Of a DNA stretch of 53,833 bases, positions 5,133 through 42,646 are shown piece after piece. Origin of the DNA: a virus (lineage: Duplodnaviria; Heunggongvirae; Uroviricota; Caudoviricetes); IMG/VR virus record IMGVR_UViG_2740892427_000003. One strand, 5' to 3'. The position numbers and the translations under genes were made by a program. The notes under the pieces are model-generated. The model saw only the letters and a program-made list of their open reading frames with translations. It was not told the origin of the DNA and ran no database searches. The stretch's first letter is position 1; every line of letters begins with the position of its first letter.

Positions 5133-8100
5133 TCACGAAATACTGATACCCGCCGTGGACTTCTTCATCACGACAACCAGCAGATCGCTGATACTCGCTG
5201 TCGGGTACCATCCATTCACCAGCCAGGCAGACACAGAAAACTCCAGCGTCATATGCCCCCTTCCTGCAGGCATATCAATCACCCCTGAATACACCTGAGA
5301 CTCAGCCAGCGCCGTCCTTTCAAAAAGCACCCTGCCGTTACATTTCACCATCAGCCGGCATGATGAATAAATATCGTTATGCTCTCTCTCATGTTTAGCG
5401 CCGCTGAAAGCCACTGCCGGGATCACAATTTGCCGGTCAAAAGGCTGATCGTCATAAATCCTGACGGTAATGGTCCCCGATGGCCACCGCTCCGGTGCGC
5501 GGGAGTCCCGCGGGAAAGCCTTCCCCACGGTTTTAACAATATCGCCTTCAATCTGGTTGGCAGACAGTTTTCCAAGTATCCGGCAGTTCTGGTTAATGGT
5601 CACATTATTGAGCGTGCCCGAGTTCGCACTGATATGTCCGCTGATGTCCGCATTGCGGGCCGTCAGCCTGCCCTCCGGCGTCAGGGAGAACGTCGGGGGA
5701 TTGCCGGACGAGGTGATGCTCACTGCAAACAGTCGCTTCAGGAACACATCGTTCATGAACAGCTGATTCCCCTGCGCCACAAACAGCGGCGTGGTGTTGC
5801 CGTTCTCCGGGTTAATCATCGCGATACGGTCCGCCTGCAGCAGAATATTGCTCAGGGGCTGGCCATCAGCATCCTCAATCCCCGCACCAATACCGGCAAC
5901 ATACGGAATGCCGTTTTTCGTTTTCTGCACCTTCAGCATGTACAGCGCAGCCAGGTCGTGATTTGTGCCTGTCTGCACCCGCTGTATCTGCTGTATGGTG
6001 GCACTCTGGTCTTCCAGGGTTTTACTGACCGTCTGCGTGATTTCATTGCGGGTTTCGGTGATGGTGGTCTTCATCTCCGCCATCTCATCATCAAGCTGGC
6101 TGTTATCAATCAGCTCCCACATCCCCTGTGCCAGATGCAGTTTTCCTATCTTTTCCCGAAACAGCCCCAGATACCCTTCTGCATCATTGCTGGCCCGGCC
6201 ACTGGCTTCCACAAACGCAGATTTCCCCACCAGGTTGACGCTGCGCACATAAAACCAGAAATCCTTCCCCGGCTTAATGTGCGGGCCGGAGACACTCCAC
6301 TGGCTGCCTGTCCCCAGATAACGGGCAGAGGTTTCCACCTGAGATGTGTCTGCGATTTTTGCCTCCGAAAACCAGAATTCAAATTGTACCGTCGGGTCAT
6401 ACACCGTAAGATGCGGGACCGCCGTTATCTGATAATACCCCGGCGTCAGTTCAATGCTGGCCGGTGCTGCCGGTGCGTTAATCCGGAACGTGGTGGTGGC
6501 AGGTTCGCCCTGCTGGCCGTAGCTGTTTATCGCCCTGACCGTCAGGGTGTATTCCCCGGGCGGCAGGCCACTGAAACGGTGCTCCGTGTCGGCAGTGATA
6601 GCGCTGGTCACCAGGCGGCTGCTTTCACCACTGCCACTGGTCAGGCGCAGACTGAAGCGCACGCCCTTCACCACCCGCGGCGTGTCCCATTTCGCCAGCG
6701 CCAGATACTGGCCGTCTGAGGCACTCACCTCCACCGTGAGGTGCTGCACAGCCGGCGGGATGACGCTGTTCAGTGAACCGGAGAGCGGCTCAAAGGTGGC
6801 CCCGTTATCCACGATGGCTTCTTTTTCCGGCACATGCTGCACCGCCGTGATGGCAAAGGTGCCGTCCGTGTTTTCCCGGATGGAAACACAGCGGAACAGG
6901 CGACGACGCAGTGACGGCAGGGAGAGTCCCCACACACCGTATGTCTCCACGCCATCCGGCAGGACGCTGACCTGTATCCGGTCCGGGGCGGGGTGTGCGG
7001 TGATGTCCACGCGCACCGGCTTACCGCTGCCGTTAATCAGGTTCACCGTCGATGTCCCTGTCTCCGGCAGGGTCACCTCACGGTCCAGCGTCAGGGTACG
7101 GCTGGCGGCATCCATGGACAGGATACGTCCGCCGGTCAGGGTCCCGGCGTAGTCGTTATCACAGATTTCAATGATGTCACCGGGCGTGTGCCGCAGCCCC
7201 TGTGACCCGAGCATGAAATCCACCGTCTGCGTTTCCAGCAGTTCTGTCTTTATCACCCACAGTCCGGCACGGTGGGCCTGACCGCGGCTGGTACAGCCAA
7301 ACGCATCCATCTTCAGCAGATTGCGCCCGTAGCGCAGGATGGCGTCCGGGTCTTCCACCAGTTCAGTGGAAGTCTGCCAGCCGTTCTGCGGGTCGGTGTA
7401 ATTCACCTCCACCGCAGTGTGCCGGTCCTTCAGGGCACTGAAGCTGTAGCGGAACCCCACGCCGTTATCATCCACCACCACATCGCTGTTGGTGTACGGC
7501 CACACCACATCCGACGGACGGTCCTGAACGAACGTCAGCGTCTGGCCGTTCCATACCGGCATACAGCGCATCGCCGAGCAGAAATCCCCCAGAACATCCC
7601 AGACCTTACGCTGCTGTGACAGGTACGCATTGAAAGTCATCCGCGGCTCTGTGCCCCCGAAACCATCCGGGACCGTCTGGTCGCAGTACTGCCCGATGGC
7701 ATACAGTGCCCACTTGTCCACATCCGCGGCCCCCAGGCGTTTTCCCATGCCGTAGCGCGGGTGGGTCAGCATGTCCCACAGGCACCAGGCCGGGTTATTG
7801 CTGTATGCCGGTTTCAGACTGCCGTCCCAGATACCGCTGTAGGTGCGTTTTTCCGGGTCATAGTTTGACGGCACCTGAATGATGCGACCACGGATATGGT
7901 AGTTCACCGTCAGCTGCTGGCCACCAAACTGCTCCGCATCCACCTGCAGCCCCACAATCGCCGTGTTCGGGTAGCACTGTTTCACATCGATGATTTCGGT
8001 GTATGACGACCACAGCGTTCTGTTCTGCAGCTGGTCCGTGGTGCTGTCCGCCGTCTCCCTGACCATCCGGATGTTAAAGGGGCGCTCAGGGAGATTATTC

Positions 8101-8606
8101 AGAATCACCGACATCAGGTACTGCGAGGTGGTTTTGCCGTTAATGGTGATATCCTTCTCCGTCACCCAGTGCCCGTTACGCTCAAGCTGAATCAGCAGCC
8201 GGACAGAAGAGGGATTACGGTCACCCTTTGAGGTGGTCTCCACCAGTGACTGCACCCCGAAGGTGACCCGCAGACGGTCAATGTTCGCTGACGTGATGGT
8301 GCGCGTCACCGGCTTTGCCTTCGTCACCTCCACGCCCAGTGCGGTTTCTGCCCCGGAGGACTCAAAGCCTTCCGGCGGTGTCTGCTCCTGCTCCCCGGCA
8401 CGCCAGACGGCGGTCACACCGTGTATCACGGGATTACCGTCCGTGTCCGTCAGCGGGGTTTTGTTCACCAGAATACTCTGCAGTCCCTTCACCGGGCCTT
8501 CCACCGGTCCCTCACCGATGGCATCAATCACGCTCATCATCTGCGTGGATTTGAGATTGTCCTTCGCCTCACGCGGTGTGTGCCCCTTGCCGCCCCCTTT
8601 ACCCAC
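5133..8606 (-). CDS. J: tail tip / host specificity protein J
   Basis: 1157 aa; N-terminus [22 protein letters not shown] and long collinear similarity to lambda J as recalled; GTG start with GGAGAGGGGG Shine-Dalgarno. Confidence 0.95.
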
Positions 8607-8745
8607 TCTGTCCCCCTCTCCTGTCTGATGTCTGAATCTGTTTATGCCAGAAAACGACAGGCACCCCGGAGGGTGCCTGTGTCATGACGGAATAAAATTT
8701 CTGAAATTCTTCACATTTCCGGCAATTGCCTGTAGCCACTATAAT

Positions 8746-8854
8746 GACGCAGCGTTACAGTTTTTTTGCTCAATAAAAGCAATAATTATCAGACCTCCTT
8801 AAGGTGACTATTCGTCTCCCGTCAGTATCCGGCGATATTACGGGAGATTTTTTT
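8746..8854 (+). ncRNA. candidate sRNA, repeat unit 1 of 3 (ends in intrinsic terminator)
   Basis: TATAAT hexamer at 8740-8745; stem tctcccg/cgggaga at 8815-8847 followed by T7 at 8848-8854; no ORF. 5' end not defined. Confidence 0.35.
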
Positions 8855-8989
8855 GCTTCAGCCACACCACAACATCCTGCTCATTTACGCCACTGGTACC
8901 CTGGCGGTCATCCGTTCTGTAAACCTGCGACAGAAAAAGTCTGAATTTCTTCACATTTTCTGTACGTTCCCGTGGCAGATATCATTCCG

Positions 8990-9088
8990 GGGCGTTACAG
9001 TTTTTTCGGGTCAATAAAAACAAAACTCCTTGAACGTTAATCTTCATCGGTTCTGTCCCGCAGTCTCCGGACTCTGCGGGATTTTTTT
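8990..9088 (+). ncRNA. candidate sRNA, repeat unit 2 of 3 (ends in intrinsic terminator)
   Basis: Conserved core gcgttacagtttttt...aactccttgaacgttaatcttcatcg; stem cccgcag/ctgcggg at 9057-9080 followed by T7 at 9082-9088. Confidence 0.35.
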
Positions 9089-9181
9089 ATCCCGTCACTG
9101 GCCAGCCCGGGCATCACCACAACGGAATAAAAATTCTGAGTTTATTCACACTTCCGGCAATTGCCTGTAGCCGCAATAATG

Positions 9182-9279
9182 ACGCTGCGTTACTGTTCTT
9201 CTGCCCAAAAAAATAACTCCATAACGTTAATCTTCATCGTTATTTCCCGCAGCTCCGCTAACTCTGCGGGATTTTTTTT
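9182..9279 (+). ncRNA. candidate sRNA, repeat unit 3 of 3 (ends in intrinsic terminator)
   Basis: Shares the 5' block with unit 1 (AATAAT at 9175-9180) and the 3' core with unit 2; stem cccgcag/ctgcggg at 9246-9270 followed by T8 at 9272-9279. Confidence 0.35.
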
Positions 9280-9283
9280 ATTT

Positions 9284-9964
9284 TTATCCCCGCCCGATAA
9301 CCACCACTTTCCCGTCTCCGCCCTCATCACGGGTGCTGATATCCTGGGATATCCGTCGTGAACCAACCAGCATTTCACCGTAAGGCACCGGCATCGGGTT
9401 ACCCTGGGCAATCATGTTGTCCAGTGACGAAAAATACGTGTTCTGTTTACCGTTATCCGTACTTTTATACTCCGGCGTCTTTGCCTTCGGGGCCAGCATC
9501 TGAGCCACACCACCCAGTATCATGCTGGCACCCAGTGAGAACAGCATCGTGGTGGCAGTCAGCCCTCCGGCACTCAGGGCTGCGCCCCATGCCGCCAGTG
9601 TTGCACCACCAGTGAAAAATGACCCGACAATCGCTGCAACCCCCAGCACCACCTGAAAAACACCATTTCCCCCGGCTCCGGCCAGTCGCGGCATAATGTG
9701 GATGACCGCTCCCTCACCCAGTTGTTCGTGAAGACGGGCGTACACCGCCTCCGGTGCGGTATCCTCACCGGCAATACGTATCTGATACCAGCCTTCGTTC
9801 ATCTGACAGCGGAATCCCGGCACCTGCAGCGACAGGGCACGGATGGCCTCCGCTGCCGTGTTCACATACAGGCTGATGCGGCGACCAAATCGTTGTAAAT
9901 CCCCGTGAAGGCAGATGCGGACCAGTGGCGGTGACGCCAGACAGAATGCGTTCGTCGTTGCCAT
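9284..9964 (-). CDS. I: tail assembly protein I
   Basis: 226 aa; RICLHGDLQRFGRRI and C-terminal NGKQNTYFSSLDNM motifs as in lambda I. Confidence 0.9.
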   Translation of the reverse strand: MATTNAFCLASPPLVRICLHGDLQRFGRRISLYVNTAAEAIRALSLQVPGFRCQMNEGWYQIRIAGEDTAPEAVYARLHEQLGEGAVIHIMPRLAGAGGNGVFQVVLGVAAIVGSFFTGGATLAAWGAALSAGGLTATTMLFSLGASMILGGVAQMLAPKAKTPEYKSTDNGKQNTYFSSLDNMIAQGNPMPVPYGEMLVGSRRISQDISTRDEGGDGKVVVIGRG

Positions 9965-42200: not shown

Positions 42201-42356
42201 TTACTTCTCAGATTCGTAGTCTACGAAGACAGCAACCTCCGTCTGGCCGGTTCGGATTCGTACCTCGCAGAGGTCTTTCCTCGTTACCAGTGCCGTCACA
42301 ACAACGGTAATACAGATGACGATCAGGGCGATTAACATCGCCTTTTGCTGCTTCAT
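42201..42356 (-). CDS. Hok/Gef-family type I toxin (hokC/gef-like)
   Basis: MKQQKAMLIALIVICITVVVTALVTRKDLCEVRIRTGQTEVAVFVDYESEK matches gef/hokC as recalled; ATG 42354-42356. Confidence 0.75.
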   Translation of the reverse strand: MKQQKAMLIALIVICITVVVTALVTRKDLCEVRIRTGQTEVAVFVDYESEK

Positions 42357-42646
42357 AGCCTGCTTCTCCTTGCCTTTCGGCACGTAAGAGGCTAACCTAC
42401 GTTTGTGAAGCATAGATTGGGCCTCAGATTAATGTTAAGCGTCCTGCAAGACGCGTAATGTTAACTGGGGCTTTTCTCTGTCTGCCTTACGGCGGCATGC
42501 CCGAGGCAGACAGCCTCAAGCACCCGCAGCAATTCTACTTAACTCTTCTTTCCCCGCAAACCGTTTTTATCCCCAGCGGCAAATCGAATACACCACCAGC
42601 GCCACCGCCATTGCAATACCAACATTTGAGAAGGCCTCAGGCCAGC

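What the first reader, a model, noticed from the sequence alone, without database searches (positions are those of the whole stretch)
8607..9283. Terminator-capped triplicated repeat between tail genes J and I, antisense to the late operon: candidate sRNA array
I and J abut in lambda, but here they are separated by 677 bp with no ORF over 25 aa. The gap holds three related units (about 8688-8854, 8930-9088, 9121-9279). Each ends on the + strand in a GC stem-loop followed by a 7-8 T run, and each carries a conserved core (gcgttacNgtt ... aactccNtNaacgttaatcttcatcg). Units 1 and 3 also share a block with a TATAAT/AATAAT hexamer. The C/A-rich single-stranded cores would suit a decoy for a G/U-rich sRNA seed. 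EHEC prophages are reported to encode Hfq-binding anti-sRNAs, but I cannot confirm identity with any named one.
Basis: partly seen in the sequence, partly recalled or inferred. Interest (0 to 1): 0.7.

Follow-up and report, generated by a model that had tools for sequence, protein, structure and literature searches.

The report
Tandem prophage PasB/EcOnc22 small-RNA genes
The 677-base gap between phage tail genes I and J holds three diverged copies of a small-RNA gene already shown to make an Hfq-bound regulatory RNA in pathogenic E. coli (PasB in EPEC, EcOnc22-24 in EHEC); the RNA family is known, but I found no description of it as a tandem array.

Summary
The 677-nt gap between J and I (8607-9283) holds exactly three related units on the + strand, antisense to the tail operon. 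Each ends in a hairpin followed by 7-8 T.

The units belong to a known but unnamed-in-Rfam family. PasB of EPEC E2348/69 and EcOnc22/23/24 of EHEC Sakai lie at this same I-J position. Both are Hfq-associated, and PasB and EcOnc22 were seen on Northern blots at about 83-85 nt. Unit 3 is 97% identical to the EcOnc22 RNA, and unit 2 is 86% identical. Unit 1 shares only the promoter block and the overall layout; its RNA body is different.

The "anti-sRNA decoy" reading does not: there is no AgvB, AsxR or Esr41 match, no excess complementarity to GcvB, and PasB pairs with mRNAs rather than sRNAs in RIL-seq.

Three things appear not to be described in the papers I could search. The I-J gap carries 1-4 such units in different prophages. 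The window's units are closer to single-copy units elsewhere than to each other. Every unit has an invariant TCTGA-N6-TCACA box (CRP-like) centred at -60.5 from the inferred transcription start.

Expression in this strain is untested. The finding is of moderate interest: a new variant of a known kind.

The parts
8657..8680 (-). Conserved GC-rich hairpin just upstream of the J ribosome-binding site. It is terminator-like only on the - strand (10-bp stem, then CGTTTTCTGG). It precedes the first sRNA promoter on the + strand. Its role is unknown.
   Evidence: terminator scan. The same hairpin is present in Sakai Sp15, E2348/69 and L019.
8687..8854 (+). Unit 1: promoter block plus the 'type-B' sRNA gene.
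   Evidence: HMM from single-copy units, E 3e-26. Repeat family D1.
8700..8715 (+). Unit 1 CRP-like box TCTGAAATTCTTCACA, centred at -60.5 from the inferred start.
8756..8761 (+). Unit 1 inferred -10 hexamer TACAGT. The inferred -35 is TAGCCA at 8733-8738. A TATAAT-like hexamer lies at 8740-8745.
   Evidence: The TAnnnT hexamer sits at a fixed 48 nt from the box centre in 44 of 46 distinct units, and the -35 TnG is present in 46 of 46.
8768..8854 (+). Predicted sRNA 1 (87 nt, type B). It contains (ARN)5 at 8772-8786, then ACCUCCUUAAGGU (an anti-Shine-Dalgarno-like sequence in a small hairpin loop), then a terminator hairpin at 8814-8848 and U7.
   Evidence: Fold z-score -3.5. ARN tract. The body has no BLASTN match to PasB or EcOnc22. 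Related bodies occur only inside arrays. This body is found in 100 of 5426 E. coli genomes.
8855..8926 (.). Spacer 1 between units. It contains CCACACCACAACAT. It lies downstream of the unit 1 terminator, so it is not part of a predicted RNA.
   Evidence: No support as a relic of gene I. No excess GcvB complementarity.
8927..9088 (+). Unit 2: promoter block plus a PasB/EcOnc22-type sRNA gene.
   Evidence: HMM E 8e-39.
8940..8955 (+). Unit 2 CRP-like box TCTGAATTTCTTCACA. The inferred -35 is TGGCAG at 8973-8978 and the inferred -10 is TACAGT at 8996-9001.
9008..9088 (+). Predicted sRNA 2 (81 nt). It contains (ARN)4 at 9013-9024, the seed region AACUCCUUGAACGUUAAUCUUCAU, a terminator hairpin at 9055-9082 and U7.
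   Evidence: 86% identical to the EcOnc22 RNA (E 3e-16) and 81% to the PasB RNA. Fold.
9089..9121 (.). Spacer 2 between units.
9122..9279 (+). Unit 3: promoter block plus an EcOnc22-allele sRNA gene. It ends 4 nt before the I stop codon.
   Evidence: HMM E 4e-42. 89.6% identical to the Sp15/VT1-Sakai unit over 163 nt.
9135..9150 (+). Unit 3 CRP-like box TCTGAGTTTATTCACA. The inferred -35 is TAGCCG at 9168-9173 and the inferred -10 is TACTGT at 9191-9196.
9203..9279 (+). Predicted sRNA 3 (77 nt). It contains (ARN)3 at 9209-9217, the seed region AACUCCAUAACGUUAAUCUUCAU (identical to EcOnc22), a terminator hairpin at 9245-9271 and U8.
   Evidence: 97% identical to the EcOnc22 RNA over 70 nt (E 7e-30). 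Fold z-score -3.5. The EcOnc22 sequence is confirmed by CLASH reads.

Best explanation
The I-J gap is a moron-type insertion site. In this prophage it carries three independent small-RNA genes of the PasB/EcOnc22 family, arranged head to tail on the strand opposite the tail operon.

Each unit has the same layout:
- a CRP-like operator (TCTGA-N6-TCACA) centred at -60.5;
- a weak sigma-70 promoter (-35 TnG..., -10 TAnnnT);
- a start at a G;
- an A-rich (ARN)n tract;
- a single-stranded region carrying CUCC(U/A)U, a short variable segment and GUUAAUCUUCAU;
- a Rho-independent terminator with U7-8.

The predicted products are three RNAs of about 77-87 nt. They would be made in the lysogen, bind Hfq through the U-tail and ARN tract, and pair in trans with host and virulence mRNAs, as shown for PasB in EPEC and EcOnc22 in EHEC.

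The units differ exactly in the segment that EcOnc22 uses for pairing, and unit 1 has a different body altogether. The array therefore probably supplies three related but distinct target specificities from one type of promoter.

Shown here: the homology, the position, the anatomy, the copy-number variation, and the experimental status of the homologues. Inferred: expression in this strain, Hfq dependence of these copies, CRP control, and target divergence.
For: Same position as validated sRNAs:
- PasB lies between the tail assembly protein gene and gpJ, antisense to them, in E2348/69.
- The EcOnc22, EcOnc23 and EcOnc24 Hfq-CRAC peaks fall in the 240-nt I-J gaps of Sp15, Sp14 and Sp11.
- The coordinate shift between Sakai genome versions was calibrated with AgvB.
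- It was then fixed at +135 by CLASH read sequences that map exactly to the gap RNA bodies.

Sequence membership:
- One search gives the HMM E-values (3e-26 to 4e-42) and the BLASTN identities (97% and 86% to the EcOnc22 RNA).

Anatomy:
- All three units have a terminal hairpin plus a U-run.
- Only the terminator is structurally conserved across 29 variants, with one compensatory pair.
- An (ARN)3-7 tract sits at a fixed place in 26 of 29 variants.

Promoter:
- The box pentamers are invariant in 46 of 46 distinct units while the N6 varies.
- No indels occur between box and hexamer in 44 of 46 units, although the transcribed part is rich in indels.
- The inferred start lies within 1 nt of the reported PasB 5' end and at the common 5' end of the CLASH reads.
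- The box occurs three times in the window against 0.16 expected by chance.

Trans-acting behaviour of the archetype:
- PasB has 37 RIL-seq partners, of which 30 are CDS/5'UTR and none are sRNAs. It is the second RNA of the chimera in about 100% of fragments.
- Partners include ler, perB, bfpB, bfpI, ftsZ, glk and galE.
- An EcOnc22-yjbJ hybrid pairs CCAUAACGUU with AACGUUAUGG.

Copy-number variation:
- Among 82 I-J junctions, the gap carries 1 unit in most, 2 in 8, 3 in 2, and 4 in 1.

Carbon-source hint:
- PasB gave 1820 chimeric fragments in LB against 258 in DMEM, and the authors report higher expression in the LB condition.
Against: There are no expression data for this strain or for any multi-unit array.

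The unit 1 RNA body has no validated homologue.

Unit 2 folds only marginally better than shuffles (z -1.4 to -1.9).

The simple promoter scan found no sigma-70 consensus match in the region, so the promoters are weak by sequence.

Covariation support is minimal, with one pair, so the RNA claim rests on homology to tested RNAs rather than on structure.

The CRP assignment rests on a 9/10 core match, the conservation pattern and the position. The left half-site has C where CRP prefers G, and -60.5 is 1 bp off the classic -61.5.

The CLASH hybrids are few (1-2 reads each).
Confidence: 0.85

Rival explanations
1. Anti-sRNA (sponge) array. The RNAs would mainly sequester a core G/U-rich sRNA such as GcvB, like AgvB or AsxR.
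For: EHEC prophages do encode Hfq-binding anti-sRNAs. The bodies carry A/C-rich tracts and ARN motifs, as AgvB does.
Against: No Rfam AgvB, AsxR or Esr41 match at E <= 10, while the AgvB model works on a positive control. Complementarity to GcvB is no better than shuffles, unlike the AgvB control. PasB has 0 sRNA partners among 37. AgvB and AsxR sit downstream of PR', not between I and J. Only GcvB was tested, so a sponge for another sRNA is not excluded.
Confidence: 0.05
2. Cis-antisense regulators of the tail operon. The RNAs would chiefly pair with the perfectly complementary I-J spacer of the late mRNA and modulate J expression or mRNA processing during lytic growth. Trans targets would be secondary.
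For: The units are fully antisense to the late transcript between I and J. The location is conserved across many prophages. A conserved hairpin sits between the units and the J ribosome-binding site.
Against: The RNAs overlap neither the J ribosome-binding site nor any coding sequence. Lambda-like phages manage without the insert. In 15 junctions the promoter block is replaced by sodC. PasB and EcOnc22 are detected in lysogens, where they pair with host mRNAs. This rival is compatible with, and could be additional to, the main explanation.
Confidence: 0.07
3. The conserved sequence encodes small proteins on the late-operon strand (MKINV...), not RNAs.
For: An ATG-AAG-ATT-AAC-GTT start is conserved in many units on the - strand, with a GGAG-like sequence upstream. 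Some differences are synonymous.
Against: ATG is replaced by ACG in several variants. Predicted lengths range from 10 to 40 aa, with frameshifted, unrelated tails. Type-B units lack the motif. There are no Pfam or significant PHROG hits for gap ORFs. The + strand RNA is what was detected experimentally in homologues.
Confidence: 0.02
4. Non-functional debris. The repeated recombination scars or decaying duplicates at a moron hot spot would be neither expressed nor selected.
For: Arrays are rare: 20 of 5426 genomes carry at least 80% of this 801-nt stretch. Some units elsewhere have lost promoter elements, such as L009 unit 1 and the sodC-linked body.
Against: All three window units keep every element that is invariant in the family: box, TnG, TAnnnT, G start, ARN tract, terminator and U-run.
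Confidence: 0.05

Closest known systems
PasB (EPEC E2348/69 prophage PP6; Pearl Mizrahi et al. 2021, PMC8550237; Zhu, Shabalina and Storz 2026 preprint)
   Same: Same locus (between tail genes I and J, antisense) and same promoter block. The seed core is the same (AACUCCUU...AUCUUCAU), as is the terminator (CCCGCAG...CUGCGGGAU7). The PasB RNA is 80-81% identical to units 3 and 2.
   Different: PasB is a single gene in a 243-nt gap; here there are three units. The 2026 survey reports PasB as usually single-copy per genome, with a minimum distance of 28 kb between copies. It states for PasA and PasD that copies are not tandem duplicates. Unit 1 has a different RNA body.
EcOnc22/23/24 (EHEC Sakai prophages Sp15, Sp14, Sp11; Tree et al. 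2014, PMC4104026; Waters et al. 2017, PMC5286369)
   Same: Same locus and strand. Unit 3 is 97% identical to the RNA and has the identical seed. Hfq-CRAC peaks, a Northern band of about 85 nt and Hfq-dependent stability are documented for EcOnc22.
   Different: There is one unit per prophage in Sakai. Targets are listed as unknown in the 2021 review. Neither the EPEC paper's table nor the 2026 preprint links PasB to EcOnc22.
AgvB and AsxR anti-sRNAs (Rfam RF02702, RF02703)
   Same: Prophage-encoded, short, Hfq-binding, with ARN motifs and an intrinsic terminator.
   Different: No sequence or covariance-model match. They sit at a different locus, downstream of PR'. They act on sRNAs, whereas PasB pairs with mRNAs.
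Tandem or multicopy sibling sRNAs (OmrA/OmrB, PrrF1/PrrF2, Qrr1-5; from general knowledge and as cited) and multicopy prophage HnrS (EcOnc10-12)
   Same: Several related sRNA genes share regulation and have partly different seeds, giving dosage or specificity effects.
   Different: Here the siblings are prophage cargo at a tail-gene junction, vary from 1 to 4 per locus, and appear assembled from already diverged alleles. HnrS copies are one per prophage.
Prophage sodC moron at the same I-J junction
   Same: Same insertion site and same strand. It is followed by a PasB-like body and terminator.
   Different: It is a protein-coding cargo that replaces the sRNA promoter block.

Membership tests
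PasB/EcOnc22-24 prophage sRNA family (not in Rfam) | Sequence similarity of the transcribed region to the experimentally detected RNAs | tested here: met
   Unit 3 is 97% identical to EcOnc22 (E 7e-30) and 80% to PasB. Unit 2 is 86% and 81% identical. This is NOT met for the unit 1 body, which has no hit. Unit 1 matches only through the promoter block and layout (HMM E 3e-26).
PasB/EcOnc22-24 prophage sRNA family (not in Rfam) | Location between lambdoid tail genes I and J, antisense to them | tested here: met
   window; PasB; EcOnc22-24.
PasB/EcOnc22-24 prophage sRNA family (not in Rfam) | Rho-independent terminator with a long U-run at the 3' end | tested here: met
   (all three units). (terminator conserved in 29 variants).
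PasB/EcOnc22-24 prophage sRNA family (not in Rfam) | Transcribed as an RNA of about 80 nt that is bound and stabilised by Hfq | not testable with these tools
   Shown only for homologues. The ARN tract and U-tail in the window units are consistent with it.
AgvB/AsxR anti-sRNAs | Match to Rfam RF02702 or RF02703 | tested here: not met
   No hit at E <= 10 in 8400-9500. Positive control scores 96.5 bits.
AgvB/AsxR anti-sRNAs | Complementarity to the seed of a core sRNA (GcvB R1 consensus target CACAACA) | tested here: not met
   (z +0.05 to -0.91 against -2.1 for AgvB). The CACAAC motifs lie outside the predicted RNAs.
Esr41 | Match to Rfam RF02676 | tested here: not met
CRP-dependent (class I-like) promoter | Operator resembling TGTGA-N6-TCACA at a helical-face-compatible position near -61.5 | tested here: met
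   TCTGA-N6-TCACA is a 9/10 match. It is centred at -60.5 in all three units. The pentamers are invariant in 46 of 46 units while the N6 varies.
CRP-dependent (class I-like) promoter | CRP-cAMP binding and crp/glucose dependence of transcription | not testable with these tools
   The only hint is indirect: PasB is higher in LB than in DMEM.
REP/IS or other known repeat element | Match to a known mobile-element or repeat RNA family, or a transposase ORF | tested here: not met
   No Rfam family. No Pfam or significant PHROG family for gap ORFs.

The most novel reading that the evidence does not exclude
The I-J junction of lambdoid prophages of pathogenic Escherichia is a cassette site holding 1-4 sRNA genes built on one conserved, probably CRP-cAMP-activated, promoter module with exchangeable RNA bodies.

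Arrays such as this one would be assembled by recombination between prophages. They would give the lysogen a carbon-source-responsive set of Hfq sRNAs with different seeds.

The set would include a so far undescribed 'type-B' RNA (8768-8854), which presents a 16S-rRNA-like anti-Shine-Dalgarno sequence (ACCUCCUUA).
Probability: 0.35. Interest if true: 0.55.

Novelty: new variant of a known kind. Interest (0 to 1): 0.4.

Why it matters
PasB and EcOnc22 are among the more abundant Hfq-bound accessory sRNAs of EPEC and EHEC. PasB contacts virulence mRNAs (ler, perB, bfp). Their function is still unknown, and in the papers I read the two names are not connected.

Four points would help work on this family:
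- PasB and EcOnc22 are one family.
- The family sits at a defined moron site.
- It occurs as arrays of 1-4 diverged copies.
- Every copy carries an invariant CRP-like operator.

Together these give a concrete regulatory hypothesis (carbon-source control) and a natural series of seed variants for target mapping. They also matter for copy-number surveys based on strict BLAST with one query, which will miss most of the family.

Tried and rejected
1. Rfam at gathering threshold and at E <= 10 found nothing meaningful in the gap. The best hit was a terminator-only resemblance to anti-hemB (19 bits against a 49.5-bit threshold).

2. The GcvB decoy idea was rejected.

3. HnrS, a multicopy prophage sRNA that targets a ribosome-binding site, looked like a candidate identity. 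It is EcOnc10-12 at another locus.

4. I tested whether the inter-unit spacers are relics of the 3' end of gene I. For window spacer 1 there was no tblastn or BLASTP support. An L019 spacer gave only a weak resemblance (E 0.31). This is left open.

5. A conserved small ORF on the - strand was rejected.

6. Structure covariation is uninformative beyond the terminator.

7. I first took the upstream TATAAT as the -10 hexamer. The reported PasB 5' end and the CLASH read starts fit the downstream TAnnnT hexamer instead. The TATAAT-like hexamer may be a second promoter or a spacer element; this is unresolved.

9. A scan of species-representative genomes found real units outside E. coli only in E. 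albertii. Two further hits are probably contaminant or misbinned contigs.
Full report
**What is there**

The window carries lambdoid tail genes on the - strand. ORF 9284-9964 is gpI (Pfam Lambda_tail_I, E 1.5e-15). ORF 5133-8606 is gpJ (six gpJ domain families). Between them lie 677 nt (8607-9283).

The repeat finder reports a three-copy direct-repeat family at 8687-8778, 8927-9018 and 9122-9213. RNAfold predicts a terminal hairpin followed by U7-U8 at the end of each unit. The z-scores are -3.5 for units 1 and 3 and -1.4 to -1.9 for unit 2.

An HMM built only from 29 single-copy units of other prophages finds exactly three hits in the 53.8-kb window, all on the + strand:
- 9122-9278 (E 4e-42)
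- 8928-9088 (E 8e-39)
- 8687-8854 (E 3e-26)

One detail is wrong. Mechanical ORFs of up to 54 aa lie within the gap, and two longer ones (66 and 73 aa) run from the gap into gene I. None tested has a Pfam match, PHROG matches are at most marginal, and none is conserved. RefSeq annotates nothing in this gap in the identical genome, E. coli 2013C-3033.

**What it is**

Rfam has no family for it, at gathering threshold or at E <= 10. The literature does.

PasB is one of five prophage sRNAs found by Hfq RIL-seq in EPEC E2348/69. It is given as NC_011601.1, minus strand, 1466343 to 1466261, 83 nt, validated by Northern blot, with Hfq-dependent stability reported by the authors. In that genome these coordinates lie between the tail assembly protein gene (which ends at 1466255) and gpJ (which starts at 1466496), antisense to both. 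The sequence aligns along its whole length with the window units.

In EHEC Sakai, the Hfq-CRAC peaks EcOnc22, EcOnc23 and EcOnc24 fall in the 240-nt I-J gaps of prophages Sp15, Sp14 and Sp11, on the antisense strand. EcOnc22 gave a Northern band of about 85 nt and was destabilised in the hfq deletion strain.

The published coordinates refer to an older genome version, so I calibrated the offset with AgvB. I then fixed it at +135 using RNase E-CLASH reads. Their EcOnc22/23/24 halves read GCCTGAAAAATAACTCCATAACGTTAATCTTCA, which matches the gap RNA bodies exactly.

Identity of the window units to the validated RNAs is as follows:

| Unit | vs EcOnc22 RNA | vs PasB RNA |
|---|---|---|
| 3 | 97% over 70 nt (E 7e-30) | 80% |
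| 2 | 86% (E 3e-16) | 81% |
| 1 | no match in the RNA body | no match in the RNA body |

Unit 1 shares the promoter block and the general layout, but its transcribed body has no BLASTN match to either RNA.

The EPEC paper's table gives no EHEC homologue for PasB. The 2026 Pas survey does not mention EcOnc names. A 2021 review lists the targets of EcOnc22 as unknown.

**Anatomy and inferred mechanism**

I collected 82 I-J junctions (the window, E2348/69, three from Sakai, and 77 of the 80 IMG/VR loci with a close gpI). From these I extracted 61 units, 46 of them distinct.

The upstream 60 nt have no indels in 44 of 46 distinct units, and the other two carry a single 1-nt insertion. This region contains:
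- TCTGA-N6-TCACA, with both pentamers invariant and the N6 variable;
- a TnG at the -35 position in 46 of 46 units;
- a TAnnnT hexamer exactly 48 nt from the box centre in 44 of 46 units (the other two are shifted by the 1-nt insertion).

Seven nucleotides after that hexamer lies a G in 38 of 46 units. This is within 1 nt of the reported PasB 5' end. It is exactly the shared 5' end of the CLASH reads.

On this basis the window RNAs would be:

| RNA | Coordinates | Length |
|---|---|---|
| 1 | 8768-8854 | 87 nt |
| 2 | 9008-9088 | 81 nt |
| 3 | 9203-9279 | 77 nt |

The box matches 9 of 10 core positions of the CRP consensus TGTGA-N6-TCACA, and it is centred at -60.5 in all three units. The three boxes are the only matches within one mismatch of that consensus in the window. 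The exact box occurs 3 times against 0.16 expected.

CRP control is an inference. It fits the weak -35 and -10 elements. It also fits PasB being more abundant in LB than in DMEM.

Downstream of the start, the sequence is rich in indels but keeps four features:
- an (ARN)3-7 tract at a fixed place in 26 of 29 variants, the motif that Tree et al. associate with Hfq binding;
- a largely unpaired region with CUCC(U/A)U, a variable 4-5 nt segment and GUUAAUCUUCAU;
- the terminator, which is the only structure conserved across variants (5 common pairs, one with a C-G to U-A change);
- the terminal U-run.

**Trans action**

PasB has 37 RIL-seq partners. None are sRNAs, 30 are CDS or 5'UTR, and 4 are 3'UTR or intergenic. 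It is the second RNA in about 99-100% of chimeric fragments. Partners include ler, perB, bfpB, bfpI, ftsZ, glk, galE and tolC.

The EcOnc22-yjbJ CLASH hybrid pairs CCAUAACGUU with AACGUUAUGG inside the yjbJ coding sequence. This places the variable segment inside the pairing region. The hybrids are few (1-2 reads each).

Units 2 and 3 differ in that segment (CCUUGAACGUU against CCAUAACGUU). Unit 1 has ACCUCCUUAAGGU, with CCUUA in the loop of a small predicted hairpin. Different target spectra are therefore likely, but they are untested.

**The decoy idea**

There is no AgvB, AsxR or Esr41 match. A true AgvB gene scores 96.5 bits with the same tool.

Duplex energies of the unit bodies against GcvB are indistinguishable from shuffles, whereas the AgvB 5' region stands out. 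This test is crude: it uses duplexfold with mononucleotide shuffles.

The CACAAC-type motifs the eye picks up are in the spacers after the terminators. The anti-sRNA reading is therefore not supported. A sponge role against some other sRNA is not excluded.

**Array versus single copy**

The 82 junctions divide as follows:

| Gap length | Content | Junctions |
|---|---|---|
| about 238-263 nt | one unit | most |
| 345 nt | one unit plus extra sequence | 4 |
| 421-478 nt | two units | 8 |
| 677 nt (window) and 715 nt (L006) | three units | 2 |
| 920 nt (L019) | four units | 1 |
| 854-855 nt | no promoter block; prophage sodC with its own terminator, then a promoter-less PasB-like body and terminator | 15 |

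The sample is biased towards close relatives of this gpI.

Other surveys gave these counts:
- In 50,697 phage records, the unit 3 query gave 152 places in 147 records, essentially one per phage.
- Among 5,426 complete E. coli genomes, 1,339 carry a unit-3-like sequence, with a median of 3 places per genome.
- Only 20 of those genomes hold at least 80% of this 801-nt array stretch.
- The type-B body occurs in 100 genomes and in no phage record.

Over the whole unit, the window units are 56-68% identical to each other. Units 2 and 3 are 85-94% identical to single-copy units elsewhere. The array therefore looks assembled from already diverged alleles rather than freshly triplicated. I could not establish how; the idea that the spacers are relics of the end of gene I found no solid support.

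Outside E. coli, a scan of species-representative genomes found a genuine unit only in E. albertii. Two further hits are probably contaminant contigs.

The 2026 survey reports PasB as usually single-copy per genome, with a minimum distance of 28 kb between copies. It says that non-PasA Pas sRNAs show only a few nucleotide differences. This suggests that its BLAST search did not reach these diverged and tandem copies.

**Rivals**

- A primarily cis-antisense role on the late I-J transcript is possible and could coexist with the trans role. The RNAs do not overlap the J ribosome-binding site or any coding sequence.
- A conserved small protein on the - strand is unlikely. The start codon is lost in several variants, lengths run from 10 to 40 aa, and the tails are frameshifted.
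- Inert debris is unlikely, because all three units keep every invariant family element.

**Verdict**

This is a real feature with a known kind of function. The window holds three tandem, diverged genes of the PasB/EcOnc22 Hfq-sRNA family at the I-J moron site of a STEC prophage.

Four points appear to be undescribed in the papers I could search:
- the equivalence of PasB and EcOnc22;
- arrays of 1-4 copies;
- the type-B body;
- the invariant CRP-like operator.

Confidence that these are sRNA genes of that family is about 0.85. Confidence in CRP control is about 0.5. Interest is moderate (0.4).

Noticed in passing
L036 2673-3530 (and 14 other IMG/VR loci, e.g. L047, L057, L077): In 15 of 82 I-J junctions the gap is 854-855 nt. 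It carries a prophage Cu,Zn-superoxide dismutase gene (sodC) on the sRNA strand with its own terminator. A PasB-like RNA body and terminator follow, but the promoter block is missing. The breakpoint lies just upstream of the TAnnnT hexamer. The I-J junction is thus a general moron hot spot, and the sRNA body might be made there by read-through.
   Followed up: partly
window 8657-8680 (- strand): A conserved 10-bp GC-rich hairpin lies between the first sRNA unit and the J ribosome-binding site. It is terminator-like only on the late-operon strand. It is also present in Sakai, E2348/69 and L019, with a differing loop. Its role is unknown; it could be a processing or stabilising element, or an insulator.
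   Followed up: partly
window 34778-34990 and 35270-35476 (- strand): There are two copies of the prophage sRNA STnc100 (Rfam RF02076; 164.6 and 134.9 bits) about 280 nt apart. The 2026 Pas preprint relates STnc100 to PasD.
   Followed up: no
window 42351-42525 (- strand): There is a sok antitoxin RNA match (RF01794, 117.7 bits), implying a hok/sok-type toxin-antitoxin locus in the prophage.
   Followed up: no
window 36601-36847 (- strand): A cluster of three tRNA genes (Rfam tRNA, 56-72 bits) lies in the prophage.
   Followed up: no
L019 2680-3600 (- strand of locus): This I-J gap is 920 nt and holds four units in tandem, including one type-B unit as the second. Two of its spacers are similar to each other. 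One translates to IHRKGLRDIGGRGQKISGRV*, faintly like the gpI C-terminus (E 0.31).
   Followed up: partly
L090 3945-4106; L091 292-447: Full-length units (E 2e-35 and 2e-44) occur on a contig binned as a Collinsella MAG and on a 460-bp contig of a Parendozoicomonas assembly. These are most likely misbinned or contaminant E. coli prophage DNA.
   Followed up: no
window 8779-8800 (- strand reading): The unit 1 body read on the late-mRNA strand contains a very strong Shine-Dalgarno sequence (AAGGAGGT) with no ATG or GTG at a normal distance. On the + strand the same bases give ACCUCCUUA, identical to the 3' end of 16S rRNA.
   Followed up: partly
window 8740-8745, 8980-8985, 9175-9180: A TATAAT-like hexamer (TATAAT, TATCAT, AATAAT) has its second and sixth positions conserved in 45-46 of 46 units. 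It lies 10 nt upstream of the hexamer that fits the mapped 5' ends. It may be a second, overlapping promoter that would give an RNA about 15 nt longer.
   Followed up: partly
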